Source: Pseudomonadota bacterium (GTDB lineage Bacteria > Desulfobacterota > S145-22). Taken from it: 64,000 nucleotides of DNA. The position numbers and the translations under genes are program-made. The notes beneath the pieces were generated by a model. It saw only the letters and a list, made by a program, of their open reading frames with translations, did not search any database and had not been told where the DNA came from. The stretch lies in assembly GCA_015493505.1 (NCBI GenBank), contig WGDA01000005.1:8525-72524 (forward strand). Direction: 5' to 3'. Shown here piece after piece: positions 8,613 through 63,359 of the stretch. Every line of letters starts with the position of its first letter. The stretch's first letter is position 1.

Positions 8613-11132
8613 TTAAGCCATCACGTCTTTCAGGGTGTCGAGAATCTCTTTCGCTTTCTGGAAGTTTGGCCCCGCCCGAAGCCCACGTTCCCGGCGCTTC
8701 CTGGGGGTTTTCCCGCTTCCCTGAACCTCCTCGAAAATCCCGTCCTCGAGGGCAACACGCAGCCACCCCTGGAAGGTTGCCGAGGTCAGGGATTCCGGAC
8801 AATGGGCCTGGCCGGTTGAAAGCATCTCCTTCCCCCATCGAATCATCTCCTGAATCACTTTTCCCTCTTTGGCCTCCCTCCCTTCCATCTTTCTTACCGT
8901 GTAGGACACCCCAACCAGAAACCCTTCCAGGGCGCTCAGGGTTAAATGCCGGAGATCCCTTGCTTCGTCCTCGTCCAGCGTTTCGAGGCGCGTCTGCCCC
9001 AGGCGGTACCAGCGTCTGGGATGTTCCACCGGCAGGAGAAACTCGTACCGAAACAGGTGGAAAAGGAACGAGAAAGCCCTGTAAGGCGTCAGCGCGCCTC
9101 TGTTTCGTCCCGCCCGGGCCGCCCAGGCGTAGAGAGAGAGGGGCGCGAGGTGGGCGATCATCATGTTCTTGGAAAACTCGAGGTGAATCCGTTTTTCCGG
9201 CGGCACGAAATAAAAGGGGTCCGCTTCATCAACTTCCACCCCCTTCCGGATGATGCCATCCTGGGTAAAAAGGCCGAGTGACCGGAGGTAGGCCTCCCGC
9301 GCTTCTTCCGCCTTCACGGGGATGTCTGTTCCTATCTCCTCGAGGATACGCCTGTAGAGTTCGGCGGTCTTCACCACCTCGGACTGGCTGATTCCCCGGC
9401 CAACGCGCGAAAGCAGCGCCGCGGCCACGAGCGAGGAAGGGGTAACCGCCATGGCGCTCTGGATGGCACGGATTATGTCGTCCGCGACTTTCTGATACAG
9501 ATCCCGGCGGTGGACGACAGCTTCCGGCATGGCCGCCACGTTCTTTTCCTCCAGGTACCTTTTGAGGGAGATAGGAGCCCCAAACCGCACGAACACGGTT
9601 CCATACCGCTTTCGGAAAATCTTACGTATTCTGAGCAGATCCCGCTTCTTCTCCTTGCGCTTTTCTTCCCCTCGCAGTTCCCGGATATATCCCTCTTCCT
9701 CCACGATTCTTTCATAGGAAATCGCCGTTGGTACCACGTAGATGTCCTTCACCGATTCCTCGGCCAGCGCGCGAAAAATCATGGCGATCATCCCTTTTTT
9801 CGGCAGAATCAGTTTCCCCGTCCGGCTTCTCCCCCCCTCGATAAAAAACTCTATGGGAACCCCCTCCCGGATCAGTTCTCTCAGGTAGAGGTAGAACACC
9901 TCTCCATAGAGAAGGTTGTCCCTGAAGCTCCTTCGGATAAAAAAGGCGCTGGACCGCCTGAAAACCGGACCCACCGGCCAGAACGAGAGGTTGGTCCCCG
10001 CGGCCACCAGGGGCAACGGCAGGTTCATTTTGTAGAGCACGTAGGACAGCAGGAAATAATCGATGTGGCTCTTGTGAGAAGGGATATAGACGAGGGAATG
10101 GTTCCGCGCGATCCTTCGCAGCCGCTGCTGCATGGCTTCATTCACGTCAACCCCGTCGTACAGGTTCTGCCAGACCCACCGCAGGATTTTTTCCCAGACC
10201 TTCACGTAGGAAATGCGAAGGTCGGCGGCAATTTCCATGACATATCCCTTCACCTTTTTCGCCAGTTCCTCAACCGGCTTGCCCTCTTCAGCCGCCCGCT
10301 TCTCCAGGTAATCCCACAGGTCAGGCATCTCCAAAATCTGTGAGACCATGCGCCTTCGAGAGGGAAGGGGAGGGCCGGAGATGCCACGCAGCTTTTTATC
10401 CAGAATGGAGACGGCGGCCTGCCGCAGCTCCAGGGCAATCTCACTGTCCGACTTGCCGGGGTTCTGCTTTAAAACCCGCTGCACGTCGATGGGGGGTCCC
10501 AGGCGAACCTGTATTCTCTTTCTGAAAAGGACATTCTTGACCCGCAACGTCCATTTGGGGGTAGAGAATTTTCCCCAGAACGCCGTGTAGAGGGAGCGTT
10601 TCTCCGTCTGGGGAAGAACATCATGGATAACAAGGTGCGGGACGAGGTAAATGGGCAGCGAAGAGCTTCTTTGCGCCCGCACCACCGCTTTGAGCGGCGT
10701 GGTGCGAAAATTCAGGCATCGCTGGACATAGGCGTCAGCCGGGTTGATATACACAGTAAAGGGAACCCGTCCAAGGGTCGAAATATCCTCATTTTCGGCA
10801 AAGGGGTCGAAAAGGCATCTCCTCTTCACAATCCACAGGAGGTGCGCCTTCAGGTGTGCCAGCCATCCCCGGATGGATATCCACGGGAGCATGGATATCC
10901 CCAACGGAAACTTGGGGTAATTTCCCCCCTTCTGGCGATAGAGGTAGTAGAGCGCCAGGAAATCGATGCGGCTGGGGGAATCCAGCAGCGGGACGACCAC
11001 CCCCTTCGCCACGAGGGCGCGCCACTTCTTGAGGTGATCGGGTGAAATCTCCACGCGGGCGAAAAGCCCCGGGAACAAGCGCCGGGAGATCCACCCCTGC
11101 ATCAGGTCAAATCGATACGGTTTCAGTCCCAT
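8613..11132 (-). CDS. plsB: Glycerol-3-phosphate acyltransferase, PlsB type.
   Basis: It has the H(X)4D motif HKSHIDYFLLSY and a long colinear block matching E. coli PlsB (AGTNLSFWPVGPVFRRSSAFFIRRSF, FIEGGRSRTGKL). The track ORF start (11366) overlaps rsmE, so the start was moved to the ATG at 11132 (MGLKPYRFD). Confidence 0.85.
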   Translation of the reverse strand: MGLKPYRFDLMQGWISRRLFPGLFARVEISPDHLKKWRALVAKGVVVPLLDSPSRIDFLALYYLYRQKGGNYPKFPLGISMLPWISIRGWLAHLKAHLLWIVKRRCLFDPFAENEDISTLGRVPFTVYINPADAYVQRCLNFRTTPLKAVVRAQRSSSLPIYLVPHLVIHDVLPQTEKRSLYTAFWGKFSTPKWTLRVKNVLFRKRIQVRLGPPIDVQRVLKQNPGKSDSEIALELRQAAVSILDKKLRGISGPPLPSRRRMVSQILEMPDLWDYLEKRAAEEGKPVEELAKKVKGYVMEIAADLRISYVKVWEKILRWVWQNLYDGVDVNEAMQQRLRRIARNHSLVYIPSHKSHIDYFLLSYVLYKMNLPLPLVAAGTNLSFWPVGPVFRRSSAFFIRRSFRDNLLYGEVFYLYLRELIREGVPIEFFIEGGRSRTGKLILPKKGMIAMIFRALAEESVKDIYVVPTAISYERIVEEEGYIRELRGEEKRKEKKRDLLRIRKIFRKRYGTVFVRFGAPISLKRYLEEKNVAAMPEAVVHRRDLYQKVADDIIRAIQSAMAVTPSSLVAAALLSRVGRGISQSEVVKTAELYRRILEEIGTDIPVKAEEAREAYLRSLGLFTQDGIIRKGVEVDEADPFYFVPPEKRIHLEFSKNMMIAHLAPLSLYAWAARAGRNRGALTPYRAFSFLFHLFRYEFLLPVEHPRRWYRLGQTRLETLDEDEARDLRHLTLSALEGFLVGVSYTVRKMEGREAKEGKVIQEMIRWGKEMLSTGQAHCPESLTSATFQGWLRVALEDGIFEEVQGSGKTPRKRRERGLRAGPNFQKAKEILDTLKDVMA

Positions 11133-11137
11133 CTTCC

Positions 11138-11875
11138 CTATCCATCCCCAAGGACATACTGCAGGATCGATAATACCTTTATCACGGCTGTCTCCAAACG
11201 CAAGGTGCGGGCCCCGAGATGGCAGGGAACAAACCCCCGGGAACACGCCCGCTGAATCTCCGCAGGCGAGAATCCCCCCTCCGGACCGATCGCCACCGTT
11301 ACCCCCCGCGTCGCGTCTCCTTCGTTCAGGCATGCCTTCAGCCCCCGTTCCGCGTCCGGCGCGCACACGAGTTTCAGGGAGGCGTCATTCATCCCCAGTG
11401 CCTTGTCCAGGGGCGTAACCTCCAAAAGCTCAGGGATGGTGGAGCGGTAGGATTGTTTCGCTGCCTCCTTCAAAATCTGTTTCCACCGTTCCCGTTTGCG
11501 GGCCGCCCGCTCTCCCGAGAAGCGGGGAACGCTACGTTCGGAAACAACCGGAACGATCCGGCGCACCCCAAGCTCCGTGGCCTTCTGGAGAATCCATTCC
11601 CACTTCTTCCCCTTAGGCAACGCCTGGATCAAAGTCATCGCCAGCGGGGATTCGGCGGCCCTGGAAACGGGGCGCTCCAGGCGCGCCACGGTTCTGACGT
11701 CATCCGACTCTGCGATAACGGCGTGATACAGGGATTCACCATCGGAAACGAGAATCCGGTCCCCCGGCCTGAGCCGCAAGACCCGCCTCAAATGCGCGTG
11801 TTCCGCGCCCGCCACGACCGCCTCCGCCTTTTCCGCGTTCAGAGAGTCGGCAAAAAACTGGAAGGTTCGGCTCAC
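11138..11875 (-). CDS. rsmE: 16S rRNA (uracil1498-N3)-methyltransferase RsmE.
   Basis: It is an RsmE-family (SPOUT) sequence. The GTG start at 11875 overlaps the prmA stop (GTGA). Confidence 0.75.
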   Translation of the reverse strand: MSRTFQFFADSLNAEKAEAVVAGAEHAHLRRVLRLRPGDRILVSDGESLYHAVIAESDDVRTVARLERPVSRAAESPLAMTLIQALPKGKKWEWILQKATELGVRRIVPVVSERSVPRFSGERAARKRERWKQILKEAAKQSYRSTIPELLEVTPLDKALGMNDASLKLVCAPDAERGLKACLNEGDATRGVTVAIGPEGGFSPAEIQRACSRGFVPCHLGARTLRLETAVIKVLSILQYVLGDG

Positions 11876-42816: not shown

Positions 42817-43150
42817 AAATGTTCCCCTGCTTTGTGCGTGAATGTCGACATTTTTTGAGCCAACAGCCAAAAAACGGAAGGATCCTCTACCTGTTGTGTG
42901 CATGCCTCACGCGAGGAAGCCTAATACAGGCATCGATCCGTCCACCTGCGAGAGCAGGTTCAAACTTGTCGGCCACACGGCAAAAGCGGGGGAATATTTT
43001 GGATATGATATGATCAGAAAGGGGAACGGGCGGCGGTCTATTAAAGAAGTGCAAACGCGCCAATCCACGCGCGAAGGAATCGTGAGGGGGGTATACACCA
43101 CACCTCAAACGGCCCCCGAGAAAAATCACTGCGCTGTTCCCGGCCTTTCA

Positions 43151-53634: not shown

Positions 53635-53880
53635 GTGGCAATGAGAGAGTGGTTAAAAATCGCTTTTCGAAGGGATGTCTGCCTCAGAGGACTCAGGGTG
53701 GCAGGCGTGGTGGGAACGCTCTTGGTCATCATCAATCAGGGAGACCTGCTTTTCCATGGGCAATGGTCCATTCGGCAGGGGGTTAAAATCGTGTTGACCT
53801 ATTTCGTGCCCTACGGCGTTTCCACTTACGCGAGCGTTGCTTCCATCCGCAAGATGGAGAGAGAAGGGGGATCACGCTAA
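53635..53880 (+). CDS. NrtS-family small membrane protein.
   Basis: It is about 80 aa. The pattern LRVAGVVGTLLVIINQGD...KIVLTYFVPYGVSTYASV matches my recollection of the NrtS family. The start is ambiguous (GTG at 53635 or ATG at 53641). Confidence 0.45.
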   Translation: MAMREWLKIAFRRDVCLRGLRVAGVVGTLLVIINQGDLLFHGQWSIRQGVKIVLTYFVPYGVSTYASVASIRKMEREGGSR

Positions 53881-53925: not shown

Positions 53926-53949
53926 TTGACATTTTGTGCTATTGCACAA
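53926..53949 (+). promoter_or_regulatory. TTGACA -35-like hexamer immediately followed by a perfect 16-bp palindrome, TTGTGCTATTGCACAA (53934..53949). It is a candidate operator or promoter for the decarboxylase-like operon.
   Basis: It was read directly. It is 28 bp upstream of the small-ORF ATG at 53978, which has the RBS GAGGAGG. Confidence 0.5.
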
Positions 53950-53977
53950 AACCGCCTGTAAGAGGAGGAAAAAGAAC

Positions 53978-54112
53978 ATGTATAACTGGGATCTGGCCTT
54001 CAAGGTTTTTTTCTACGGTTTTTCAGGGGTCTTCATCTGTCTGATCATCCTGATGTTTTTCGTTCAGATCAGCGGCATGGTCTTTAAAAACTTCAGAAAG
54101 AAAAAATCTTAG
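53978..54112 (+). CDS. Small single-TM membrane protein (44 aa). It is a candidate OadG-like gamma subunit of the Na+-translocating decarboxylase and is not in the supplied ORF track.
   Basis: The ATG at 53978 is preceded by a strong RBS AGAGGAGGAA. The product MYNWDLAFKVFFYGFSGVFICLIILMFFVQISGMVFKNFRKKKS is one hydrophobic helix plus a basic tail. The gene lies directly upstream of the beta-subunit gene, as oadG does. Confidence 0.5.
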   Translation: MYNWDLAFKVFFYGFSGVFICLIILMFFVQISGMVFKNFRKKKS

Positions 54113-54170
54113 GCCACTGGCGCTTCGTGGCCTGAGTTAACCCATCAGCCTTTTCTGCGAGGAGACGAAG

Positions 54171-55289
54171 ATGGACGCTTTTTCAATCCACACCCTGTTG
54201 CTGAAGACGGGAATCCTGCATCTCACTTATGGCCATGTCATCATGTGGGCGATTGGGTTTCTGTTTGTCTATCTCGGCATCAAAAAGAATTTCGAGCCGC
54301 TGCTCCTGGTTCCTATCGGGTTTGGCATCTTTATCGTAAACCTTCCCCTGGCCCCTCTGGCGGGAAAGGGAGACCTGATCTGGATATTTTATCATTACGG
54401 CCTGGAGTGGGAGGTCATCCCCCCGCTGATTTTCATGGGTGTCGGGGCGCTAACGGATTTTGGCCCCCTCATCGCGAACCCTAAGACCTTGTTGCTGGGT
54501 TCCGCCGCGCAGTTTGGGGTTTACGTGACCTTTTTCGGCGCCATCGCGCTGGGGTTCACCGTGAAGGAAGCCGCTTCCATCGGAATCATCGGGGGCGCCG
54601 ATGGGCCCACCTGCATCTATCTGACCGCCAAGCTTGCCCCTCGGCTGCTGGGCGCCAACGCCATTGCCGCTTACTCCTATATGGCCATGGTTCCTCTCAT
54701 TCAACCCCCTATCATGCGGCTGATGACGACCAAAAAAGAACGACAAATCGTGATGAAACAGCTCCGGCCAGTCTCCAAGCTGGAGAAAATCTTGTTTCCC
54801 ATGATCGCCACGCTGGTCATCTGCCTGCTCGTCCCGGAATCCGCCCCCCTCATGGCGATGCTTATGCTTGGGAACCTTTTCCGTGAGTGTGGTGTGGTTC
54901 AGCGCCTTTCTCACGCGGCGCAAAACGAGCTGCTCAACATCCTGACCATCTTTCTGGGAATTGCTGTCGGCACCACCATGCGGGCGGAGACCTTCCTGAA
55001 CCCCCAGCCGATTTTCATTTTCATCCTTGGCCTGTTCGCTTTCTCTTTCAGCACCGTGGGTGGCCTGTTGATGGCAAAATTCATGAACCTTTTTCTGAAG
55101 GACAAGATTAATCCCTTGATCGGTTCGGCGGGAGTGTCCGCCGTTCCAATGGCCGCCCGAGTGTCCCAGGTGGAAGGGCAAAGAGAGAACCCGAGAAACT
55201 TCCTCCTGATGCACGCGATGGGACCCAATGTGGCGGGTGTTATCGGAACAGCCACGGCGGCGGGGATGTTTCTGGCCCTTCTCAAATAA
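54171..55289 (+). CDS. oadB: Na+-translocating decarboxylase beta subunit (OadB/GcdB/MmdB family).
   Basis: It is 372 aa, polytopic, with the OadB-family sequence and the RBS GAGGAGA. Confidence 0.85.
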
Positions 55290-55362
55290 GACTTGACAAT
55301 GATAACGTTTACAAATAAAAGGGTGGTTGTGACCACCCTTTTATTGTAACAAGGAGGAGAAA

Positions 55363-56856
55363 ATGGAAGCGAAAAATCCGGTCAAGATTACGGATACCAC
55401 ATTACGGGATGGGCACCAGTCCATCTTCGCCACGCGCATGCGCACGGAAGACATGATCCCCATCGCGGAGAAAATCGACCAGATGGGATACCATTCTGTC
55501 GAGATGTGGGGTGGAGCCACGTTCGACGTCATGCACAGGTTTCTGGGGGAGGATCCGTGGGAACGGATTAGAACCCTGAGGAAACACATGCCCAATACCC
55601 CGTTCCAGATGCTTTTAAGGGGCCAAAATCTGGTGGGGTACCGGAACTATCCCGACGACGTCGTGGAGGCGTTCGTGCAGACGGCCTGCGACGTGGGGAT
55701 CGATATCTTTCGTGTCTTCGATTCCGTGAACGATGAACGCAATTTTGAAACCTGTTTCAGAGTCATCAAGAAGAATGGGAAACACATCCAGGGAACCGTC
55801 TGCTATTCCCTCACGGAAAGGCGGCTGGGGGGCCCTATCTATAACATTGACTATTTTGTAAACAAGGCCCTGAAGATTCAGGAGATGGGCGCGGACTCCA
55901 TCTGCATCAAGGACCAGGCGGGTTTGATCTCTCCCTATGACGCCTATGAACTAATCAAGGCCCTGAAGGAAAAGCTGGATGTTCCCGTGCAGTTGCATAC
56001 CCACTTCACCAGTGGCATGGGCGCCCTTTCGCTGCTGAAGGCGGTCGAGGCGGGTGTGGACGTCATCGACCTGGCCACGGCTCCCTTTGGGATGCGTACC
56101 TCTGAACCCGCCATGGAGCCTTTCATCGTGGCGCTTCAGGGAACGGGACGGGACCCGGGCCTCGATCTGAACAAAGTCTTCGAGATAGGGAATTATCTGG
56201 AAACCATTATTCCGAAATATAAGAGATTCGCGGATCAGACCCGGTTTTCTGTCATCGACACCACCGTTCTGGTTCATCAGATTCCTGGCGGCATGACAAC
56301 CAACCTTGTCAACCAGCTCAAGCAGGCGAAGGCGCTTCACCGACTTCCGGAGGTTCACAAGGAAGTCGCCCAGGTTCGGAGTGAGCTGGGATACCCTCCA
56401 CTTGTGACCCCATCCAGTCAACTGGTTGGCGCCCAGGCGGTTATGAACGTCCTGTTTGGACGCTATAAAATGATTACCAACCAGACGAAGGACTATGTCT
56501 TCGGACTGTACGGCAAGCCACCCGTCCCGGTGGATCCGGAGATACAGAAACTCGTTCTGAAAGGGTATCCCCGGGGAGAGACGCCCATCACCTGCCGGGC
56601 GGCGGACCTTCTGGAACCGGAGCTCGACAAGGCGAAGGAAGCCACGAAAGACCTGGCCAAGTCCCTCGAGGATGTCCTGATCTACGCCCTCTTCCCCACC
56701 ACTGGGTTACAGTTCCTGAAATGGAAGTATGGTGTTGAACCGATGCCCGACAGTGTCAAGCCCGTGACCCTGGAAGACGTCCAGAAGGAAGAGGAGCTGG
56801 TACGACTCGCGAGGGAAGGGAAACTCATCCGGAAAGAGGACTGCCCCAACGGGTAA
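55363..56856 (+). CDS. oadA: Oxaloacetate decarboxylase alpha / pyruvate carboxylase subunit B-type carboxyltransferase (5S-type TIM barrel). It lacks a C-terminal biotinyl (BCCP) domain.
   Basis: The N-terminus VKITDTTLRDGHQS is the HMGL-like carboxyltransferase signature. The protein is 497 aa and ends without an AMKM biotinylation motif. Confidence 0.8.
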   Translation: MEAKNPVKITDTTLRDGHQSIFATRMRTEDMIPIAEKIDQMGYHSVEMWGGATFDVMHRFLGEDPWERIRTLRKHMPNTPFQMLLRGQNLVGYRNYPDDVVEAFVQTACDVGIDIFRVFDSVNDERNFETCFRVIKKNGKHIQGTVCYSLTERRLGGPIYNIDYFVNKALKIQEMGADSICIKDQAGLISPYDAYELIKALKEKLDVPVQLHTHFTSGMGALSLLKAVEAGVDVIDLATAPFGMRTSEPAMEPFIVALQGTGRDPGLDLNKVFEIGNYLETIIPKYKRFADQTRFSVIDTTVLVHQIPGGMTTNLVNQLKQAKALHRLPEVHKEVAQVRSELGYPPLVTPSSQLVGAQAVMNVLFGRYKMITNQTKDYVFGLYGKPPVPVDPEIQKLVLKGYPRGETPITCRAADLLEPELDKAKEATKDLAKSLEDVLIYALFPTTGLQFLKWKYGVEPMPDSVKPVTLEDVQKEEELVRLAREGKLIRKEDCPNG

Positions 56857-56870
56857 GGGCCACCAACAAG

Positions 56871-56928
56871 CCGGGGAAAGGACAGGCGCGAGCCTTTGGG
56901 GTTTAGTGTGTTTAGTGTCCTTCCCCGG
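56871..56928 (+). terminator. Long imperfect stem-loop (CCGGGGAAAGGACA ... TGTCCTTCCCCGG) after the carboxyltransferase gene. It is a possible terminator or processing site and contains a GTTTAGTGT x2 direct repeat.
   Basis: It was read directly. There is no clear U-tract. Confidence 0.3.
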
Positions 56929-57018: not shown

Positions 57019-60000
57019 ATGATTTCCATCGGAATTGATATTGGGTCTGTGAGTACGGATGTCGTTGTAATTGATGACCAGGGAAAGATCCTGGACGATC
57101 GATATATCCGTAATTTCGGGAAACCACTTCAGGCAACGCTGGACACCCTGTCAGAGTTGCTCGAGACATACGGGCCGGAGAACATCGAACGCGTAAGTTT
57201 CACCGGCACGGGTGGCAAGCTGGTGGCCCGTCTGAGCAAGGGGTTTTTCGTCAACGAAATCATCGCCCAGGCCAAGGCGGTTACCACCCTTTACCCGCAG
57301 GCGCGAACCATCATGGACATCGGAGGGGAGGACTCAAAGCTCATTCACCTGGAAGAAGAAAACGGAGTCGTCAAGATTCGTGATTTTTCCATGAATACCC
57401 TCTGTGCCGCGGGAACAGGCTCTTTTCTCGATCAACAGGCCACCCGCCTGGGATACAAGATTGAAGACCTGGGCGAGATCGCGCTTCAGTCGGAAAATCC
57501 CCCCCGCATCGCGGGACGATGCAGCGTGTTCGCCAAATCGGACATGATACACCTCCAGCAGATCGCCACGCCAGACAAAGACATCCTCGCGGGCCTCTGT
57601 TACGCCCTCGCGAGAAACTTCAAGAGCAGCATCGGCAAGGGAGAAGAATTCGTCCGTCCCATCGTGTTTCAGGGCGGTGTCGCGGCCAATCCCGCCATGC
57701 GGAAGGCCTTTCTGGATGTCCTGGAACTCGAAGACAATGAACTGATTATTCCGGAGCATTTCACCGCCATGGGTGCCATTGGTGCCGTCTTCCAGGCCCG
57801 GCAGGAGGGGGTCACAACCGGCGCCCCGGACCTGGAAGCCATCCGCGCGTATATTTCCCAGAGTGAACGCGAGGACAACCCTCTTAAACCTCTTTCCCTC
57901 TCCTCTCTTCACACAAAACAGGAATCCTCCCCAAAACCCTCTCTGGGTAAAAAGAAAATCCGTGGTTATCTCGGACTCGACGTGGGCTCCATCAGCACCA
58001 ACCTGGTGGTGCTCGATGAGAACCTGAACCTGATTACCAAACGATACCTAATGACCGCCGGGAAACCCATCGACGCCGTCCGAACCGGCCTGAAATCCAT
58101 TGGGGAAGAACTGGGTGACCGGGTCGAAATCATCGGAGCCGCCACAACCGGTTCCGGCCGGTACCTGACAGGTGATTACGTGGGAGCGGACGTGGTCCGG
58201 AACGAAATTACCGCCCAGGCGACGGCGGCCATCCATATCGATCCGGAGGTGGACACTGTCTTCGAGATTGGTGGGCAGGACTCCAAATACATCAGCATCG
58301 ATGATGGTGTGGTGGTCGATTTTGAGATGAACAAGTCATGCGCCGCAGGCACCGGCTCCTTCCTGGAAGAGCAGGCGGAACGACTGGGAATCTCCATCAA
58401 GAAGGAGTTCAGCGAGCTGGCCCTCTCGGCGAAAAGGCCCGTCAGGATGGGAGAACGTTGTACGGTCTTCATCGGTTCCGACCTGGTGCATCACCAGCAG
58501 CAGGGCGCGCAAACGGACGACCTGGTGGCGGGACTTTCCTATTCCATCGTCCTGAACTACCTGAACCGGGTGGTTGGTGACCGGAGAATCGGCAAGAAAA
58601 TCTTTTTTCAGGGGGGAACGGCCTTCAACAAAGGGGTCGTGGCGGCCTTTGAAAAGATTGTGGGACAGCCCATCGTGGTTCCACCCAACCATGATGTCAC
58701 GGGAGCCATCGGTGCCGCCATCCTCGCGAAGGAGTACAAGGATCAGCACCCGGGCCCCTCAAATTTCAAGGGATTCGACCTGTCTGAACGCTCTTACACC
58801 ATCAAGACCTTCGAATGTAAGGGGTGCGACAACCGATGCCTCATCCGGCAGGTCAGCATCGAGAACGAACAGCCGCTCTTCTACGGCAGCCGGTGTGAAA
58901 AGTATGATGTGGTCAAGAAAAAGAAACGGGTGGATTTGCCCAACCTGTTTGACGAGCGGGAGACGCTTCTCCTGAACGCCTACGACGGAGACCCGGAAGA
59001 TCCAACGGACCCGAAGGTCATTGGAATCCCCCGCCTGCTTTATTTCAATGAATACTTTCCCTTCTGGCTCACCTTTTTCAAGGCCTTGGGATATACCCCC
59101 ATGATTTCGGCCCCCACACGCCGCGAACTGATACGCAAGGGCGTGGAAGCCGTAGTGGCCGAAACCTGTTTTCCCGTCAAAGTGGCCCATGGGCATGTGA
59201 TCGACCTGTTGGAAAAGGGTGTGGCCAACCTCTTCCTGCCAAGCGTGATCGATCAGCCCCCGCTGGTTAAAGACGCCGTTAACAGCTTCAACTGCCCCTA
59301 TTCCCAGACCATTCCCTACACCTTTCCCTCCGCCATCAACTTTTCCAAATATCACACCCGGGTCTTGAGCCCCATTATCCGTTTCGGGCAGGGAGAGAAG
59401 GTGCTGAAGGAGGATATGGAAGCGCTTGGGAAGATGTTTGGCATTCCAAAAATCAAGGTCTTTGAAGCCTTTGTAAAGGCATGGGACACCCAGCAGGATT
59501 TCTACGCCAAACTCAAGAAACGGGGAAGGGAAGTCCTGAAACAGTTACGGGAAAAGGACGACCTGGGAATCGTGATTGTGGGACGCCCTTACAACACATG
59601 CGACAGCGGCGTAAATCTGAATATCCCCAAAAAACTTCTGGATCTGGGGGTCCTGCCCATCCCCATGGATTTTCTCGATCTGGAAGACCTCGAATCGTCT
59701 GAGGGAATCCGGGACATCTACTGGAAGTACGGACAGAAAATCCTTGCCACGGCCAAGAAGCTGAAAGGGCGGGATAACCTGTTCGCCCTCTATATCACGA
59801 ATTTTGGCTGCGGGCCGGACTCTTTCATTTCTCATTTTTTCAGGGAGATGAGCAAGGGAAGCCCCTATCTCCAGCTTGAAATTGACGAACACAGCGCGGA
59901 CGCCGGCGCCATCACCCGGTGTGAGGCCTTTTTGGACAGCCTCAGAAACGTGAGAAAGCGCCGGGCGGCCATGAAGCCCGTCCAGTCTGAAACGCCTCAT

Positions 60001-61233
60001 GTGAAAAGGTCCGTGCCCCGCCTGGCCGACCGGGTCATTTATATCCCCCACATGGCTGACCATGCGTACGCCTTTGCGGCGGCTTTCCATGCGTGTGGAC
60101 TCCAGGCGGACGTCTTCCCCGAATCGACCGAGGAGACCCTGGAGTATGGAAGAAAGTATACCACGGGGAAGGAATGTTTCCCCTGTATCGTGACGACGGG
60201 AGACCTCATCCGCATCACCAAGATGCCAGGGTTCGACCCCAAAAAGGTCGCCATTTTCTTCCCTTCCGGATCCGGACCCTGCCGGTATGGCCAGTATCAC
60301 CGCTTTCACCGCCTGCTGCTGGATCAGTTGGGACACAAGGACATCCCCATTTTTGCCCCTGAGCAGGATGAATCCCTGTACGAAGACGTCTCCGCGCTCG
60401 GAAAGAAATTCCGAAGGCTGGGGTGGCAGGGAATCGTGGCCGTGGACCTCCTTTACAAGATGCTCCATGAAACCAGGCCCTACGAAGTGGTCAAGGGTTC
60501 CACGGACGCGGTCTATAAACGCTGCCTGGAAAAGATCTGTGATGACATCCGGAATGAGCGGAACCTGATTGACACGTTTGATGCCATTATCAGCGAATTC
60601 CGGACCATCGAGGTGGACCGCTCCGAGAAGAAACCCCTCATTGGGATCGTGGGGGAAATCTTCGTTCGCCTCAACCGCTTCAGCAACGAGGATGTGATCC
60701 GAAAGGTTGAAGACCTGGGAGGGGAGGTTTGGCTCGCCCCCCTGTCTGAGTGGATATACTATACCAACTTCACGGCCCGGATGAGAAATACCATCAAAAA
60801 GAAGTGGCTGAGCAACCTGAAACTGTCGATTGTGGAGCATTTTCAGAAGAAGGATGAGAAGATGCTCATGAATTTCCTTTCCCGTTACCTGAGAAATTCC
60901 CACGAGCCGGAAACGGAGGAGATTATCGAAAAGGCCTCCGCCTATCTTCACCCAAGTTTCGAGGGCGAGGCGATTTTAAGTGTTGGGAAGGCCATCGACC
61001 TGAAGGATAAAGGGGCGAGCGGGGTCATCAACATCATGCCATTCACCTGTATGCCGGGGACCATTGTCAGCGCCATTCTCAAGCGGTTCAGGGAGGAAAA
61101 TCAGCACTTTCCCATTCTGAACATGGCGTATGACGGGCAGGAACAGACCAACACCATGACCCGATTGGAGGCCTTCATGCATCAGGTGAAGGAATTTCAG
61201 AAACAGACAATCCGTCAATCGCAGGAAAGGTGA
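57019..61233 (+). CDS. Large fusion protein of unknown function. It has two BadF/BadG/BcrA/BcrD-type ATPase (activase) repeats, a Cys4 motif, and two 2-hydroxyacyl-CoA dehydratase (HgdA/HgdB, BcrB/BcrC)-like domains.
   Basis: It is 1404 aa with the RBS GGGAGGAG. The ATPase repeats run aa 1-255 and about aa 316-570, each with DxGSxST, CAAGTG and RCxVFxxSD motifs. CKGCDNRC...C lies at aa 600-626. Dehydratase-family blocks are NFGCGPDSF...EIDEH, GSGPCRYGQY and MPFTCMPG. Confidence 0.85.
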   Translation: MISIGIDIGSVSTDVVVIDDQGKILDDRYIRNFGKPLQATLDTLSELLETYGPENIERVSFTGTGGKLVARLSKGFFVNEIIAQAKAVTTLYPQARTIMDIGGEDSKLIHLEEENGVVKIRDFSMNTLCAAGTGSFLDQQATRLGYKIEDLGEIALQSENPPRIAGRCSVFAKSDMIHLQQIATPDKDILAGLCYALARNFKSSIGKGEEFVRPIVFQGGVAANPAMRKAFLDVLELEDNELIIPEHFTAMGAIGAVFQARQEGVTTGAPDLEAIRAYISQSEREDNPLKPLSLSSLHTKQESSPKPSLGKKKIRGYLGLDVGSISTNLVVLDENLNLITKRYLMTAGKPIDAVRTGLKSIGEELGDRVEIIGAATTGSGRYLTGDYVGADVVRNEITAQATAAIHIDPEVDTVFEIGGQDSKYISIDDGVVVDFEMNKSCAAGTGSFLEEQAERLGISIKKEFSELALSAKRPVRMGERCTVFIGSDLVHHQQQGAQTDDLVAGLSYSIVLNYLNRVVGDRRIGKKIFFQGGTAFNKGVVAAFEKIVGQPIVVPPNHDVTGAIGAAILAKEYKDQHPGPSNFKGFDLSERSYTIKTFECKGCDNRCLIRQVSIENEQPLFYGSRCEKYDVVKKKKRVDLPNLFDERETLLLNAYDGDPEDPTDPKVIGIPRLLYFNEYFPFWLTFFKALGYTPMISAPTRRELIRKGVEAVVAETCFPVKVAHGHVIDLLEKGVANLFLPSVIDQPPLVKDAVNSFNCPYSQTIPYTFPSAINFSKYHTRVLSPIIRFGQGEKVLKEDMEALGKMFGIPKIKVFEAFVKAWDTQQDFYAKLKKRGREVLKQLREKDDLGIVIVGRPYNTCDSGVNLNIPKKLLDLGVLPIPMDFLDLEDLESSEGIRDIYWKYGQKILATAKKLKGRDNLFALYITNFGCGPDSFISHFFREMSKGSPYLQLEIDEHSADAGAITRCEAFLDSLRNVRKRRAAMKPVQSETPHVKRSVPRLADRVIYIPHMADHAYAFAAAFHACGLQADVFPESTEETLEYGRKYTTGKECFPCIVTTGDLIRITKMPGFDPKKVAIFFPSGSGPCRYGQYHRFHRLLLDQLGHKDIPIFAPEQDESLYEDVSALGKKFRRLGWQGIVAVDLLYKMLHETRPYEVVKGSTDAVYKRCLEKICDDIRNERNLIDTFDAIISEFRTIEVDRSEKKPLIGIVGEIFVRLNRFSNEDVIRKVEDLGGEVWLAPLSEWIYYTNFTARMRNTIKKKWLSNLKLSIVEHFQKKDEKMLMNFLSRYLRNSHEPETEEIIEKASAYLHPSFEGEAILSVGKAIDLKDKGASGVINIMPFTCMPGTIVSAILKRFREENQHFPILNMAYDGQEQTNTMTRLEAFMHQVKEFQKQTIRQSQER

Positions 61234-61238
61234 ACTGT

Positions 61239-63359
61239 ATGACAAAAAAAATCGCGTTGGTTCTATGTGTCATCCTGGTGGGGTCTTTCGTTACCGGTTG
61301 TGGGGAATCTTTAATGTTCTGGAAAAAGAAGAAAGAGATTGAGGTCAGCCACCAGAAGCTGCCCCCCTTCAAAACCCTCTTCGAACGAACAGTCGAGATG
61401 TACAATTCCAAGCAGTACAAAGACGCCATCAACTCCTTTCTCTTCCTTCGCGAAAACTATCCTCAAGAGACGGCCTACCAGTCCCGCATCACCCTCTATC
61501 TGGCAGACAGCCATTTCCACCAGAAGGAATACCCGGAAGCCATCGCGAACTATCGGGAATTTATCAAACTTTACCCGACAAGCCCGGATGTTCCCTATGC
61601 CTATTTTCAGATTGGAATGTGTAACTACAAAGAGCGGCGAACCTATGATCGCGATGCCACCTTTGTCCGCAAGGCGATTGAGAATTTCAAGAAGGTGCTC
61701 CAGATCGCCCCGCCCGGCGTGCTGGTCAATGAGTCCATCCGCATGATCGCCCTGTGTCAGCGGGAGCTGGCACTCCATGACCTGTTTATCGCGGATTTTT
61801 ACATGCGGACCCACCACTACAAATCCGCTATTTTCAGGTACGAAGACGTGCTCCATTCCTTCCCCGATTTCAAAATCTATGACAGGGCCCACTTGGGGAT
61901 TGGAAAGGCCTACCTGAAGTTGAAAAAGCGGAATGAGGCCTTTCGCCACCTCAGCTATGTGGCTAAAAATTATCCGAACACCCCTTACGGGAAAGAGGCC
62001 TGGAAACTGCTCCAGAAGGATTTCAAGGTGGCATCTCGTGATCAGTTGCCCGATGTGACCTTCCCTATGGCAAACGTGGCCTCTGCTACGCCGCCGGCAC
62101 CAGCCACAAAACCAGTACCGTCTCCAGCGCCCGAAAAGGCAACCGCCTCGACAAAAACAGCCGGGGGAAAACAGGTAAAAACAAACGCGCCGGCCTCCAC
62201 CACACCTCCCGCCAAGGTCGCCAAAAAACCCGCGCCCGAACCGAAACCGCATACCTATTTCCCGAAAATCACCAAGGTTCAGGAAAAACCTGCTGTTTCC
62301 TCTCCACCCGTCAAGACGGTAAAATCTTCCGAACCGCAAACGAAAGTCGTCAAGACCACGCCGCAGGCGAAGGAGCAGACGCGCAACGGAACCACGTCAA
62401 AAGCCGCGCCGGCACCCAAAACTCCCCCCGTGTCGCCTCCCCTTAAACACGTAAAAAAACCCACTCCGGCGCCTCCCGCGCCGCAACATGTGGCGACCGC
62501 TTCAACGTCTCCCACGCCCCCTACGCCTCACAAAACCGTAACGGCCAAAAAGGTTGCCGTGAAAAAACCCAGCCAACCAAAGCCCGTTAGCGCGGTCCCA
62601 GCCTCTCCAAAGACTCAAGAAACACCCGTGCCCCAAAAGCCCTCCGAGGAAAAGGCAGCGCCTCAAAAACCTGTCCAGGCACCTGCCGCTTCCATGGCCT
62701 CGAAACCCGCTTCACCTGCCCCGCCACCCAAAAAAGCGGCGCAGAAGGCGGCTCCGCCCGCTACCGCCGTTCAAAAGTCTCAACCGCCTACTGGGAAGGC
62801 GACGCCTTCACCGGCTGTAAAGAAGGCTGAAAAAACCCCTTCAAATGTCAAAAAAATGGTGAAGACCGACACCCTGCCTCCCAAAAAGGTGAAACAACCC
62901 TCTTCAGGCCTGGTTGGCGCGCTCGACACCCGAAAACCCATTCATATCACAGCAGACCACGTGGAATCCCAGCAGGGGAAAAATTCCGTTCGGTTCTATG
63001 GGCGGGTTGTGGCGAAGCAGAAAGACGTGACCCTCAAATGCGATGATCTCACGGCGTTTTATACCTCCGGAGGCAAGGCCATCGATAAAATCGTGGCTCA
63101 TGGCCATGTCGTCATCACCCAGCTCAACAAGAAGGTCAAGTGTGGAAAGGCGATATTTTACAACGCCGCGCGAAAGATTATCCTGGAAGACTCCCCCATC
63201 GCCTGGGATGGCAACAACCGCATCAGCGGAAGCAAGATGGTGCTCCTTCTCGACAAGAACGAAATTCAGATTCTCGGGTCAAAAAAGAAGCCCACGGAGC
63301 TTGTAATCTATCCGAATCAAAAACCGGGGTTACTGAAGAGTCCAGCTCAGTCGAAGTAA
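61239..63359 (+). CDS. bamD: Lipoprotein fusing a BamD-like (YfiO) TPR domain to an LptA/OstA-N-like domain through a long Pro/Ala/Lys-rich linker.
   Basis: It has a signal peptide with the lipobox VTGC. The BamD-like TPR region runs to about aa 260 (YKDAINSFLFL..., EYPEAIANYREFI..., YKSAIFRYEDVL...). An approximately 250-aa low-complexity PAK-rich segment follows. The C-terminal LptA-like domain reads PIHITADHVE...GNNRISGSKMVLLLDKNEIQILG. Confidence 0.65.
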   Translation: MTKKIALVLCVILVGSFVTGCGESLMFWKKKKEIEVSHQKLPPFKTLFERTVEMYNSKQYKDAINSFLFLRENYPQETAYQSRITLYLADSHFHQKEYPEAIANYREFIKLYPTSPDVPYAYFQIGMCNYKERRTYDRDATFVRKAIENFKKVLQIAPPGVLVNESIRMIALCQRELALHDLFIADFYMRTHHYKSAIFRYEDVLHSFPDFKIYDRAHLGIGKAYLKLKKRNEAFRHLSYVAKNYPNTPYGKEAWKLLQKDFKVASRDQLPDVTFPMANVASATPPAPATKPVPSPAPEKATASTKTAGGKQVKTNAPASTTPPAKVAKKPAPEPKPHTYFPKITKVQEKPAVSSPPVKTVKSSEPQTKVVKTTPQAKEQTRNGTTSKAAPAPKTPPVSPPLKHVKKPTPAPPAPQHVATASTSPTPPTPHKTVTAKKVAVKKPSQPKPVSAVPASPKTQETPVPQKPSEEKAAPQKPVQAPAASMASKPASPAPPPKKAAQKAAPPATAVQKSQPPTGKATPSPAVKKAEKTPSNVKKMVKTDTLPPKKVKQPSSGLVGALDTRKPIHITADHVESQQGKNSVRFYGRVVAKQKDVTLKCDDLTAFYTSGGKAIDKIVAHGHVVITQLNKKVKCGKAIFYNAARKIILEDSPIAWDGNNRISGSKMVLLLDKNEIQILGSKKKPTELVIYPNQKPGLLKSPAQSK

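What the first reader, a model, noticed from the sequence alone, without database searches (positions are those of the whole stretch)
53926..56928. Atypical Na+-pumping decarboxylase-like operon with a tiny gamma-like ORF, a beta subunit, and a carboxyltransferase without a biotin domain
Seen in the sequence: the gene order is a 44-aa single-helix ORF, then oadB, then an OadA/PycB-type carboxyltransferase. A 44-aa single-helix ORF (53978..54112) with a strong RBS sits exactly where oadG would be. It is missing from the ORF track because of its size. The alpha-like protein (497 aa) stops after the carboxyltransferase domain and has no biotinyl domain.

Established knowledge: canonical OadGAB is encoded in the order gamma-alpha-beta. 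OadA carries a C-terminal BCCP whose biotin shuttles CO2 to OadB.

Inference: a separately encoded biotin carrier must serve this complex, or the carboxyltransferase belongs to a different split pyruvate-carboxylase or transcarboxylase-like system that has recruited an OadB-type pump.

The neighbouring genes encode a CoA pyrophosphatase-like NUDIX enzyme, hbd and the giant activase-dehydratase protein. This suggests the locus is an anaerobic acyl-CoA or oxo-acid energy-conservation module.
Basis: partly seen in the sequence, partly recalled or inferred. Interest (0 to 1): 0.6.

Follow-up and report, generated by a model that had tools for sequence, protein, structure and literature searches.

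The report
Split sodium-pump decarboxylase with a mini anchor subunit
Three adjacent genes encode the membrane pump, a stripped-down 44-residue anchor peptide and a biotin-free carboxyl-transfer enzyme of a sodium-pumping decarboxylase. It is a real lineage-specific variant of a well-known enzyme family, and it must borrow its biotin carrier from a gene elsewhere in the genome.

Summary
A 44-aa single-helix ORF (53978-54112) is followed by oadB (54171-55289) and then a 497-aa OadA/PycB/5S-type carboxyltransferase with no biotinyl domain (55363-56856). None of this is an artefact. The short alpha is a common natural form. The 44-aa ORF belongs to a conserved family of 43-67-aa "mini-gamma" peptides that match the transmembrane part of OadG and always sit just upstream of one distinct oadB clade.

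The order beta then biotin-less alpha recurs in many other loci, and split oxaloacetate decarboxylases are described in Enterococcus faecalis.

What looks new is a co-loss of the tether. Mini-gamma has no cytoplasmic tail and alpha has no association or biotin domain. In sister loci the biotin carrier is a bare ~70-aa biotinyl domain with no anchor peptide.

No biotin carrier, 12S transferase or biotin carboxylase lies in the window or about 10 kb either side.

Best reading: an untethered, modular Na+-translocating (oxaloacetate) decarboxylase served by a trans-encoded mini-BCCP. The neighbouring genes do not support a dedicated acyl-CoA module. A conserved TTGACA box plus hairpin between oadB and alpha suggests partly separate transcription.

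Verdict: new variant of a known kind, moderate interest.

The parts
53926..53977 (+). Upstream region of mini-gamma: TTGACA (53926-53931), an 8-bp inverted repeat TTTTGTGC/GCACAAAA (53932-53951) and the RBS GAGGAGG (53962-53968). Its role as a promoter or operator is unverified.
   Evidence: Read directly from the sequence. It is only partly conserved in the 88% orthologous locus L089. The sigma-70 scan did not call a promoter here.
53978..54112 (+). Mini-gamma: a 44-aa homologue of the N-terminal transmembrane helix of OadG/GcdD/MmdD. It has no linker and no cytoplasmic C-terminal tail.
   Evidence: Pfam OAD_gamma E = 3.1e-5, model positions 3-39 of 76. The family has 27 representatives, nearly all 43-67 aa, and 24 of 24 tested match OAD_gamma. 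The ORF is conserved upstream of oadB in L089, L093-L096, L098, L099, L101, L102, L105, L173 and L177. pN/pS is 0.24.
54171..55289 (+). Beta subunit (OadB/GcdB/MmdB family): carboxybiotin decarboxylase and Na+ pump, 372 aa, short form.
   Evidence: OAD_beta 536 bits; TIGR01109 516 bits, above its cutoff of 190.6. E = 2.8e-123 to Salmonella OadB 6IVA. Equivalents of Glu40, Asp203, Tyr229, Arg304, Asn311, Asn373, Gly377, Ser382, Arg389 and Asn412 are conserved, and Ser419 is Thr (alignment; residue roles from PMC7274780).
55293..55343 (+). Conserved non-coding block between oadB and alpha: TTGACA (55293-55298), a 17-nt spacer, then a 12-bp-stem hairpin TAAAAGGGTGGT/ACCACCCTTTTA (55316-55343) followed by T-rich sequence. 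It is a candidate terminator for gamma-beta and/or a promoter-operator for alpha.
   Evidence: RNA fold -22.8 kcal/mol, z = -4.3, with 0 of 200 shuffles folding as well. Both the AGACTTGACAAT box and the hairpin stems are conserved in L089 although synonymous sites are saturated and the rest of the spacer differs. The block is absent in L093, where alpha starts 5 bp after oadB.
55363..56856 (+). Alpha: OadA/PycB/transcarboxylase-5S-type oxaloacetate/pyruvate carboxyltransferase, 497 aa. It ends just before the point where biotin-bearing homologues continue with the anchor peptide, Ala/Pro linker and biotinyl domain.
   Evidence: HMGL-like and PYC_OADA only. E = 1e-139 to 5KS8, 7e-137 to V. cholerae OadA 2NX9 and 8e-126 to 5S 1RQB. 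Equivalents of 2NX9 Asp17, Lys178, His207 and His209 are D16, K183, H212 and H214, all invariant in alignment A1. The same C-terminus occurs in dozens of homologues.
57019..61233 (+). Neighbouring 1404-aa protein with two BcrAD_BadFG ATPase modules, DUF2229 and a weak HGD-D match. It is a recurrent neighbour whose link to the pump is unproven.
   Evidence: Domains. A 1422-aa homologue lies directly upstream of mini-gamma/oadB in L094, which has no alpha.

Best explanation
The locus encodes three of the four parts of a biotin-dependent Na+-translocating decarboxylase in a split, untethered form.

**Proposed mechanism**
1. Alpha takes the beta-carboxyl of oxaloacetate and puts it on biotin, releasing pyruvate.
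2. The biotin is carried not by alpha but by a separate small carrier protein encoded elsewhere. By analogy with sister loci this is most likely a bare ~70-aa biotinyl domain.
3. The carboxybiotin carrier then reaches the membrane beta subunit.
4. Beta decarboxylates the carboxybiotin and uses the energy to export Na+.
5. The 44-aa mini-gamma is the beta-bound transmembrane helix of OadG and presumably only stabilises beta.

**Why untethered**
Mini-gamma lacks the cytoplasmic tail. Neither alpha nor the clade's carriers have the ~30-residue anchor peptide that the tail normally binds. The soluble parts are therefore not clamped to the pump. The gamma-beta module can then be shared with other carboxyltransferases (GcdA/MmdA-type) through the same free carrier.

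**Shown**
- Gene identities.
- Intact catalytic residues.
- Family-level conservation of mini-gamma.
- Its restriction to one beta clade.
- Covariation of mini-gamma with anchor-less carriers.
- Absence of a carrier in about 84 kb.

**Inferred**
- Oxaloacetate as the substrate.
- Physical cooperation of alpha with beta.
- Na+ as the coupling ion.
- The identity of the carrier.
For: **Part identities**
- Domain assignments.
- Beta keeps every residue shown to be essential in Salmonella/Klebsiella OadB (with PMC7274780).
- Alpha keeps the residues aligned to Asp17, Lys178, His207 and His209 of V. cholerae OadA.

**Mini-gamma**
- In the Salmonella beta3-gamma3 structure only gamma residues 2-43 are ordered on beta. 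That is the size of mini-gamma.
- The mini-gamma family has 27 representatives, and 24 of 24 tested match OAD_gamma.
- Beta subunits preceded by a mini-gamma cluster together in an NJ tree, apart from those with a long gamma. L114 is the exception: it branches alone at the midpoint root.

**Linkage of beta and alpha**
- The order gamma-beta-alpha is kept in the 88% orthologue.
- It is also kept in L093, where beta is 80% identical and alpha starts 5 bp after beta.
- The pairing beta then biotin-less alpha recurs independently in many loci that also carry gamma and BCCP.

**Tether covariation**
- Loci with a gamma tail of 31 residues or fewer have carriers with the biotinyl-Lys 26-35 residues from the start and no anchor motif (L096, L101, L105; also L097, and a 71-aa carrier in L173).
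- Loci with a tail of about 50 residues or more have carriers with 74-116 residues before the Lys, nearly all with an anchor motif.

**Literature**
- Gamma is a TM helix, an AP linker and a C-terminal segment that binds a ~30-aa peptide of OadA. GcdC is a 30-aa anchor, an AP linker and a ~70-aa biotinyl domain (PMC7145394).
- A split OAD is described in E. faecalis (PMC6193673).
Against: - No biotin carrier was found in the window or about 10 kb beyond each end. The fourth part is therefore hypothetical for this genome.
- The ~69%-identical alpha homologues are stand-alone genes with no oadB nearby. Alpha can evidently work without an adjacent pump.
- Most mini-gamma/oadB pairs sit alone among housekeeping genes, or next to 12S-type transferases rather than alpha.
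- A conserved TTGACA box plus strong hairpin separates oadB from alpha here.
- Sequence cannot distinguish an OAD alpha from a transcarboxylase 5S or a PycB carboxyltransferase.
- No expression, biotinylation or transport data exist.
Confidence: 0.55

Rival explanations
1. Alpha is mainly the 5S-type half of a methylmalonyl-CoA:pyruvate transcarboxylase, or the carboxyltransferase of a multi-subunit ATP-dependent pyruvate carboxylase. On this reading the mini-gamma/beta module mainly serves another decarboxylase such as glutaconyl-CoA or methylmalonyl-CoA decarboxylase, whose transferase is encoded elsewhere. The adjacency would then reflect only use of a common biotin-carrier pool, or chance.
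For: - The best NCBIfam model above its cutoff is 'pyruvate carboxylase subunit B', a domain-level model.
- Alpha matches the 5S structure at E = 8e-126.
- Close homologues are stand-alone, one of them next to malate dehydrogenase and fumarase.
- The biotin-bearing form sits with a 12S transferase, mutase, MeaB and epimerase.
- Sister mini-gamma/beta modules are paired with 12S-type transferases, and in L105 with an acyl-CoA dehydrogenase.
- A conserved promoter-like box and hairpin lies between oadB and alpha.
- The Geobacter and syntrophic propionate-oxidiser literature treats such genes this way (PMC2996986; PMC11201294).
Against: - No 12S transferase and no biotin carboxylase is present in the window.
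- Beta-alpha adjacency is conserved in the 88% orthologue and is nearly overlapping in L093.
- The same pairing arose or persists in unrelated lineages.
- This rival is not exclusive of the main explanation if the carrier is shared.
Confidence: 0.3
2. The module runs in reverse. The Na+ gradient drives beta to carboxylate the free biotin carrier, and alpha then carboxylates pyruvate to oxaloacetate without ATP. This would be useful to an energy-limited anaerobe.
For: The parts are the same as in the main explanation. The literature on syntrophic propionate oxidisers proposes sodium-import-driven carboxylation by a methylmalonyl-CoA decarboxylase (PMC11201294). Reversibility of this enzyme family in vitro rests on my own knowledge and was not checked here. 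No pyruvate carboxylase biotin-carboxylase subunit lies in the window.
Against: There is no direct evidence here.
Confidence: 0.1
3. The short gamma and short alpha are decay products: truncated remnants of a once canonical oadGAB, no longer functional together.
For: Both proteins lack segments that are present in the canonical enzymes.
Against: - Both short forms are conserved families with clean, shared termini.
- The small ORF is under purifying selection.
- The catalytic residues are intact.
- All three genes have strong ribosome-binding sites.
Confidence: 0.02

Closest known systems
Canonical oxaloacetate decarboxylase Na+ pump OadGAB (Klebsiella pneumoniae, Vibrio cholerae, Salmonella Typhimurium; structures 6IVA/6IWW and 2NX9)
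   Same: The beta family and all its functionally essential residues are the same. The alpha carboxyltransferase fold and metal/lysine site are the same. Gamma has a homologous N-terminal transmembrane helix.
   Different: - Gene order is gamma-beta-alpha, not gamma-alpha-beta.
- Gamma is 44 aa with no linker or C-terminal tail.
- Alpha lacks the association (anchor) segment and the biotinyl domain.
- Beta is the short 372-aa form, lacking about 55 residues of the enterobacterial loop.
Split oxaloacetate decarboxylase of Enterococcus faecalis (OadA, OadB, OadD, OadH; operons oadHDB-citCDEFX-oadA-citMG). An archaeal OAD from Archaeoglobus fulgidus has also been partly characterised.
   Same: The carboxyltransferase and the biotin carrier are separate polypeptides, and there is a small extra subunit functionally equivalent to gamma (PMC6193673 and PMC3198936; the A. 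fulgidus enzyme is cited in PMC8100219).
   Different: - In E. faecalis the carrier gene lies in the same locus, embedded in citrate-fermentation genes. Here no carrier and no citrate lyase genes are nearby.
- The small subunit here is a TM-only OadG homologue.
- The subunit composition of the A. fulgidus enzyme rests on my memory of Dahinden et al. 2004 and was not read here.
Glutaconyl-CoA and methylmalonyl-CoA decarboxylases (GcdABCD, MmdADECB) and the common clusters 12S-CT / gamma / BCCP / beta / biotin-less alpha
   Same: They share the beta plus small-anchor plus free-BCCP logic. In many sampled loci a biotin-less OadA-type gene directly follows beta, as it does here.
   Different: - Those systems have a long gamma/delta (roughly 50-250 residues after the helix).
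- Their BCCP carries an N-terminal anchor and an Ala/Pro linker.
- The window clade has neither.
- No crotonase-fold 12S-type transferase lies in the window.
Transcarboxylase 5S subunit (Propionibacterium freudenreichii, 1RQB) and two-subunit pyruvate carboxylase beta subunit (5KS8)
   Same: The carboxyltransferase domain is the same, and 5S likewise has no biotin domain. The biotin-bearing paralogue of the window's alpha sits in a transcarboxylase-type cluster.
   Different: No 12S, 1.3S or biotin carboxylase partner lies nearby. The gene is adjacent to a membrane carboxybiotin decarboxylase instead.

Membership tests
Biotin-dependent Na+-translocating decarboxylases (OAD/Mmd/Gcd) | Integral membrane beta subunit of the OAD_beta family with the Na+-binding and essential residues | tested here: met
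   OAD_beta 536 bits and TIGR01109 516 bits. Equivalents of E40, D203, Y229, R304, N311, N373, G377, S382, R389 and N412 are conserved, and S419 is Thr (with PMC7274780).
Biotin-dependent Na+-translocating decarboxylases (OAD/Mmd/Gcd) | Small single-pass subunit (gamma/delta) with an N-terminal transmembrane helix bound to beta | tested here: met
   OAD_gamma match to model positions 3-39. All 24 family members tested match OAD_gamma. The gene always lies immediately upstream of oadB. Physical binding to beta was not tested.
Biotin-dependent Na+-translocating decarboxylases (OAD/Mmd/Gcd) | Gamma C-terminal segment that binds the ~30-residue anchor peptide of alpha or of the biotin carrier | tested here: not met
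   The protein ends 8 residues after the helix. The tail after the helix is 18-31 residues by the stop-to-stop measure across the clade, against roughly 50 or more elsewhere. Alpha stops before the anchor segment seen in biotin-bearing homologues.
Biotin-dependent Na+-translocating decarboxylases (OAD/Mmd/Gcd) | Carboxyltransferase that loads biotin from the substrate | tested here: met
   HMGL-like and PYC_OADA domains; active-site equivalents D16, K183, H212 and H214. Substrate specificity was not tested.
Biotin-dependent Na+-translocating decarboxylases (OAD/Mmd/Gcd) | Biotin carrier domain or protein | tested here: not met
   None in any frame of the 64 kb, and none among the genes called about 10 kb beyond each end. 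The rest of the genome could not be searched with these tools.
Biotin-dependent Na+-translocating decarboxylases (OAD/Mmd/Gcd) | Decarboxylation-driven Na+ transport | not testable with these tools
   Needs biochemistry.
Canonical OadGAB operon | Order gamma-alpha-beta, with alpha carrying an association domain and a C-terminal biotinyl domain | tested here: not met
   The order is gamma-beta-alpha, and alpha has no Biotin_lipoyl domain. Canonical loci in the sample show G, alpha+BCCP (about 603 aa), then beta.
E. faecalis-type split OAD (OadA/B/D/H) | Separate carboxyltransferase without biotin, plus a separate biotin carrier gene in the same locus | tested here: inconclusive
   The separate transferase is present. 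No carrier gene is in the locus. Homology of mini-gamma to OadH was not tested.
Methylmalonyl-CoA:pyruvate transcarboxylase (12S/5S/1.3S) | 5S-type transferase together with a 12S transferase and a 1.3S carrier | tested here: not met
   5S similarity E = 8e-126, but no 12S-type ORF and no carrier lies in the window. Their presence elsewhere in the genome was not testable.
Two-subunit pyruvate carboxylase (PycA/PycB) | PycB with a C-terminal biotinyl domain, and a biotin carboxylase partner | tested here: not met
   No biotinyl domain. No biotin carboxylase homologue in the window.

The most novel reading that the evidence does not exclude
A whole clade of Thermodesulfobacteriota-type anaerobes uses an untethered 'hub' version of the Na+-pumping decarboxylases. 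A minimal beta/mini-gamma pump and a freely diffusing ~70-aa biotin carrier would be shared among several soluble carboxyltransferases (OadA/5S-type, GcdA/MmdA-type). Oxaloacetate, glutaconyl-CoA and methylmalonyl-CoA decarboxylation, transcarboxylation between them, and possibly Na+-driven carboxylation in reverse would then all run through one carrier pool rather than through dedicated tethered complexes.
Probability: 0.3. Interest if true: 0.55.

Novelty: new variant of a known kind. Interest (0 to 1): 0.38.

Why it matters
Current models of Na+-translocating decarboxylases assume that the gamma/delta tail and the anchor peptide hold the carboxyltransferase and the swinging biotin domain above the pump.

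A natural lineage that has dropped both halves of that tether, yet keeps every catalytic residue, would show that tethering is dispensable. It would also supply a minimal beta plus 44-residue gamma pair for structural and reconstitution work.

For genome interpretation it matters in two further ways. In syntrophic and sulfate-reducing anaerobes, 'pycB/oadA' genes without a biotin domain and orphan oadB genes are routinely annotated separately. Recognising them, together with the tiny and often uncalled gamma and ~70-aa carrier genes, as parts of one modular system changes energy-budget reconstructions, both for Na+ export and for ATP-free carboxylation.

Tried and rejected
- **Frameshift or truncation artefact for alpha.** Rejected: there is no biotinylation motif in any frame, the downstream spacer is too short, and many homologues share the identical end.
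- **Chance ORF for the 44-aa peptide.** Rejected.
- **Biotin carrier, 12S transferase or biotin carboxylase in the window.** Motif scan plus phmmer with seeds taken from fetched loci found none.
- **Extending the search about 10 kb beyond both window ends** through public contigs found none. The whole MAG (GCA_027055435.1) could not be scanned with these tools.
- **Word-index homology search with the 44-aa peptide.** It returned only 3 close relatives, so the exhaustive profile search was needed.
- **PDB sequence search with the peptide.** No hit.
- **Consensus terminator scan.** It did not report the oadB-alpha hairpin, probably because its A/T-extended stem uses up the T-run. Folding and cross-locus alignment were used instead.
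- **Rfam.** No known RNA family lies in the locus.
- **L119.** It was first scored as a mini-gamma locus. It actually has a long gamma interrupted by an in-frame stop and groups with the long-gamma betas.
- **Organism identity.** It could not be fixed. Relatives' proteins are labelled Deltaproteobacteria, Thermodesulfobacteriota, Syntrophaceae, and one Latescibacteria.

Full report
**1. What is there**

The region holds three co-directional genes, each with a strong ribosome-binding site.

- *Small ORF.* The 44-aa ORF (53978-54112; MYNWDLAFKVFFYGFSGVFICLIILMFFVQISGMVFKNFRKKKS) has one hydrophobic helix and a basic C-terminus. It matches Pfam OAD_gamma at E = 3.1e-5, just below the gathering score, and only over model positions 3-39 of 76, which is the transmembrane part.
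- *Beta.* The 372-aa protein (54171-55289) is a full-length OAD_beta/TIGR01109 member.
- *Alpha.* The 497-aa protein (55363-56856) has HMGL-like and PYC_OADA domains and no Biotin_lipoyl domain.

**2. Are the short forms real?**

*Alpha.*
- Among the 120 best homologues, roughly two thirds are 492-524 aa with the same two domains. The rest are about 620-675 aa and add a biotinyl domain.
- An alignment shows the short forms all stop about 10 residues after a conserved helix. The long forms continue there with a beta-strand anchor segment (…RTYNVFVEDEYYEVQVEEVG…), an Ala/Pro-rich linker and the EAMKM biotinylation site.
- The window has no plausible biotinylation motif in any frame. Only 162 nt follow the alpha stop.

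*Small ORF.*
- The locus that is 88% identical at alpha (L089-L092) keeps a 43-aa version.
- pN is 0.21 against a saturated pS of 0.86. For oadB the values are pN 0.05 and pS 0.80.
- A profile of three close sequences, searched against 1.84 billion cluster representatives, found 27 proteins at E ≤ 1e-3. Twenty-five of them are 43-67 aa.
- They share the motif W..A..VF..GF.GVF..L..LM.
- All 24 scanned match OAD_gamma, with a best E of 4e-10.

**3. Catalytic competence**

- *Beta.* Aligned to Salmonella OadB (6IVA, E = 2.8e-123), beta keeps Glu40, Asp203, Tyr229, Arg304, Asn311, Asn373, Gly377, Ser382, Arg389 and Asn412, with Ser419 replaced by Thr. The eLife structure paper, with the Klebsiella mutagenesis it summarises, identifies all of these except Arg389 as Na+-binding, essential or structurally required (PMC7274780). 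Arg389 rests on my recollection of that mutagenesis.
- *Gamma.* In that structure only gamma residues 2-43 are visible on beta. The structured, beta-bound part of a canonical gamma therefore has the size of this whole protein.
- *Alpha.* Alpha aligns with V. cholerae OadA (2NX9) so that Asp17, Lys178, His207 and His209 correspond to D16, K183, H212 and H214. All four are invariant in the family alignment. The role of these four as metal ligands and carbamylated lysine comes from my knowledge of the 2NX9 work and was not re-read here.

**4. Comparative context**

From one scan of species genomes anchored on alpha and one scan of metagenomes anchored on beta, I annotated every locus with HMMs and phmmer seeds. 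Three patterns emerged.

(a) *Canonical gammaproteobacterial loci.* These read gamma (about 85-130 aa stop-to-stop), then alpha with a biotin domain (about 603 aa), then beta.

(b) *Long-gamma clusters.* A large set of loci reads 12S-type transferase, long gamma, BCCP (about 125-165 aa), beta, often followed directly by a biotin-less alpha of 460-490 aa. Examples are L048, L069, L104, L148, L155-L159 and L165. A beta followed by a biotin-less OadA-type gene is therefore common, not atypical.

(c) *The window's own group.* In an NJ tree of 91 beta sequences, the betas preceded by a mini-gamma cluster together, apart from those with a long gamma. L114 is the exception and branches alone at the midpoint root. 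L119 was mis-scored: it has a long gamma interrupted by a stop. Within this group the partners vary:
- alpha follows beta in the window, in L089 and in L093;
- a 12S-type transferase is adjacent in L098, L101 and L105 (with an acyl-CoA dehydrogenase in L105, a Gcd-like set);
- a small BCCP is adjacent or nearby in L096, L097, L101, L105 and L173;
- many pairs stand alone among housekeeping genes (L095, L114, L177).

**5. The tether covaries**

The Gcd paper summarises the anatomy of these enzymes (PMC7145394).
- Gamma (there called OadD/GcdD) is a TM helix, an Ala/Pro linker and a C-terminal segment that binds a ~30-residue peptide of OadA.
- GcdC is a 30-residue N-terminal anchor, an Ala/Pro linker and a ~70-residue biotinyl domain.

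In my sample:
- Loci whose gamma has about 50 or more residues after the helix have carriers with 74-116 residues before the biotinyl-lysine. Nearly all of these carry a recognisable K.[FY].V.VNG..Y.V-type anchor.
- Loci with a mini-gamma (31 residues or fewer after the helix) have carriers of about 70-72 aa. Their lysine lies 26-35 residues from the start and there is no anchor.

Alpha in the window likewise stops exactly before the anchor segment. Both sides of the tether have therefore been lost together in this clade. I found no description of this in the papers searched, though the literature search was limited.

**6. Where is the carrier here?**

- There is no biotinyl domain, 12S-type transferase or biotin carboxylase in the 64 kb.
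- There is none among the genes called about 10 kb past either end on public contigs of the same organism.

The requirement for a trans-encoded carrier is thus an inference. It is supported by the sister loci and by the fact that the ~69%-identical alpha homologues are also stand-alone genes.

**7. Is it one operon?**

The 73-nt oadB-alpha spacer contains TTGACA (55293-55298). Seventeen nucleotides later there is a 12-bp-stem hairpin (55316-55343; -22.8 kcal/mol, z = -4.3), followed by TATTG.

In L089 the spacer is 162 nt and otherwise unalignable. The AGACTTGACAAT box and both hairpin arms are nevertheless retained, with a different loop, at a divergence where synonymous sites are saturated. 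This is a conserved regulatory element. It could be a terminator or attenuator for gamma-beta, an operator overlapping an alpha promoter, or both.

In L093 alpha starts 5 bp after beta with no such element. Co-transcription of alpha with gamma-beta is thus plausible but not assured in the window.

**8. The neighbours**

- The NUDIX protein scores 132.7 bits against the CoA pyrophosphatase equivalog, whose cutoff is 134.
- Hbd is clear.
- The giant protein has two BcrAD_BadFG modules plus DUF2229.

However, the whole 43-63 kb stretch is a co-directional mix of unrelated housekeeping genes. The arrangement is kept only in very close relatives. This does not support a dedicated acyl-CoA module.

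One link is worth noting. A 1422-aa homologue of the giant protein lies directly upstream of mini-gamma/oadB in L094, which lacks alpha.

**9. Interpretation**

The best-supported reading is a split, untethered Na+-translocating decarboxylase.
1. Alpha transfers CO2 from oxaloacetate to a free mini-BCCP.
2. Beta decarboxylates the carboxybiotin and exports Na+.
3. Mini-gamma only stabilises beta.

The main rival is that alpha is primarily a transcarboxylase or pyruvate-carboxylase transferase and that gamma-beta mostly serve a Gcd/Mmd-type transferase. This rival is compatible with the same parts sharing one carrier pool, which is the more novel 'hub' reading. Reverse, Na+-driven carboxylation cannot be excluded. 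Decay is excluded.

**10. Verdict**

It overstates the atypical order and the metabolic module.
- This is a new variant of a known kind and is of moderate interest.
- The most useful by-products are the mini-gamma family, its covariation with anchor-less carriers, and the conserved intergenic element.

Noticed in passing
window 55293-55343: A TTGACA box plus a 12-bp-stem hairpin between oadB and alpha is conserved against the 88% orthologous locus, although the surrounding spacer is unalignable. It could be a terminator, an operator or both.
   Followed up: partly
window 57019-61233; L094 3332-7600: A giant (about 1400 aa) protein with two BcrAD_BadFG ATPase modules plus DUF2229 lies next to mini-gamma/oadB in two differently arranged loci. 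In the window it is downstream of alpha. In L094 it is directly upstream of mini-gamma, with no alpha present.
   Followed up: partly
window 53635-53880: An 81-aa ORF (called as 60-68 aa in public assemblies) matches NCBIfam NrtS, a nitrate/nitrite transporter small protein (42 bits, cutoff 25). It sits immediately upstream of mini-gamma and is kept in the 88% orthologous locus.
   Followed up: no
window 42821-42996 (+): 6S/SsrS RNA at 110 bits. It is the only Rfam family at gathering score in the whole window.
   Followed up: no
window 61230-63359: A 706-709-aa protein fuses an N-terminal BamD/YfiO-like TPR lipoprotein domain to a C-terminal LptA/LptD_N domain through a roughly 300-residue Pro/Ala/Lys-rich low-complexity linker. 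This is an unusual architecture.
   Followed up: no
L094 9311-14276: Downstream of mini-gamma/oadB lies a second, divergent oadB paralogue (413 aa). It is followed by a 204-aa ORF that hits the gamma HMM and then a P-type cation ATPase.
   Followed up: no
L179 16822-17977 (about 5 kb beyond the window's end): Three tandem ORFs of 96-97 aa with no Pfam hit are followed by a CstA-family transporter gene.
   Followed up: no
window 54113-54133: A short inverted repeat GGCCAC...GTGGCC lies in the 58-nt spacer between mini-gamma and oadB. No T-run follows it.
   Followed up: no
L084 and L086 about 9270-11494; L093 2233-5914: The alpha gene lies divergent from a yceD-plsX fatty-acid gene cluster (with a small rpmF-like ORF between them in L093) in several relatives. 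It occurs there either alone (L084, L086) or preceded by mini-gamma/oadB (L093), which suggests insertion or loss of the gamma-beta pair at a fixed alpha position.
   Followed up: partly
window 55363-56856, alpha residues about 152-157: A six-residue insertion (ERRLGG) relative to the V. cholerae OadA and Methylobacillus PycB structures is shared by the whole deltaproteobacterial-type alpha clade.
   Followed up: no
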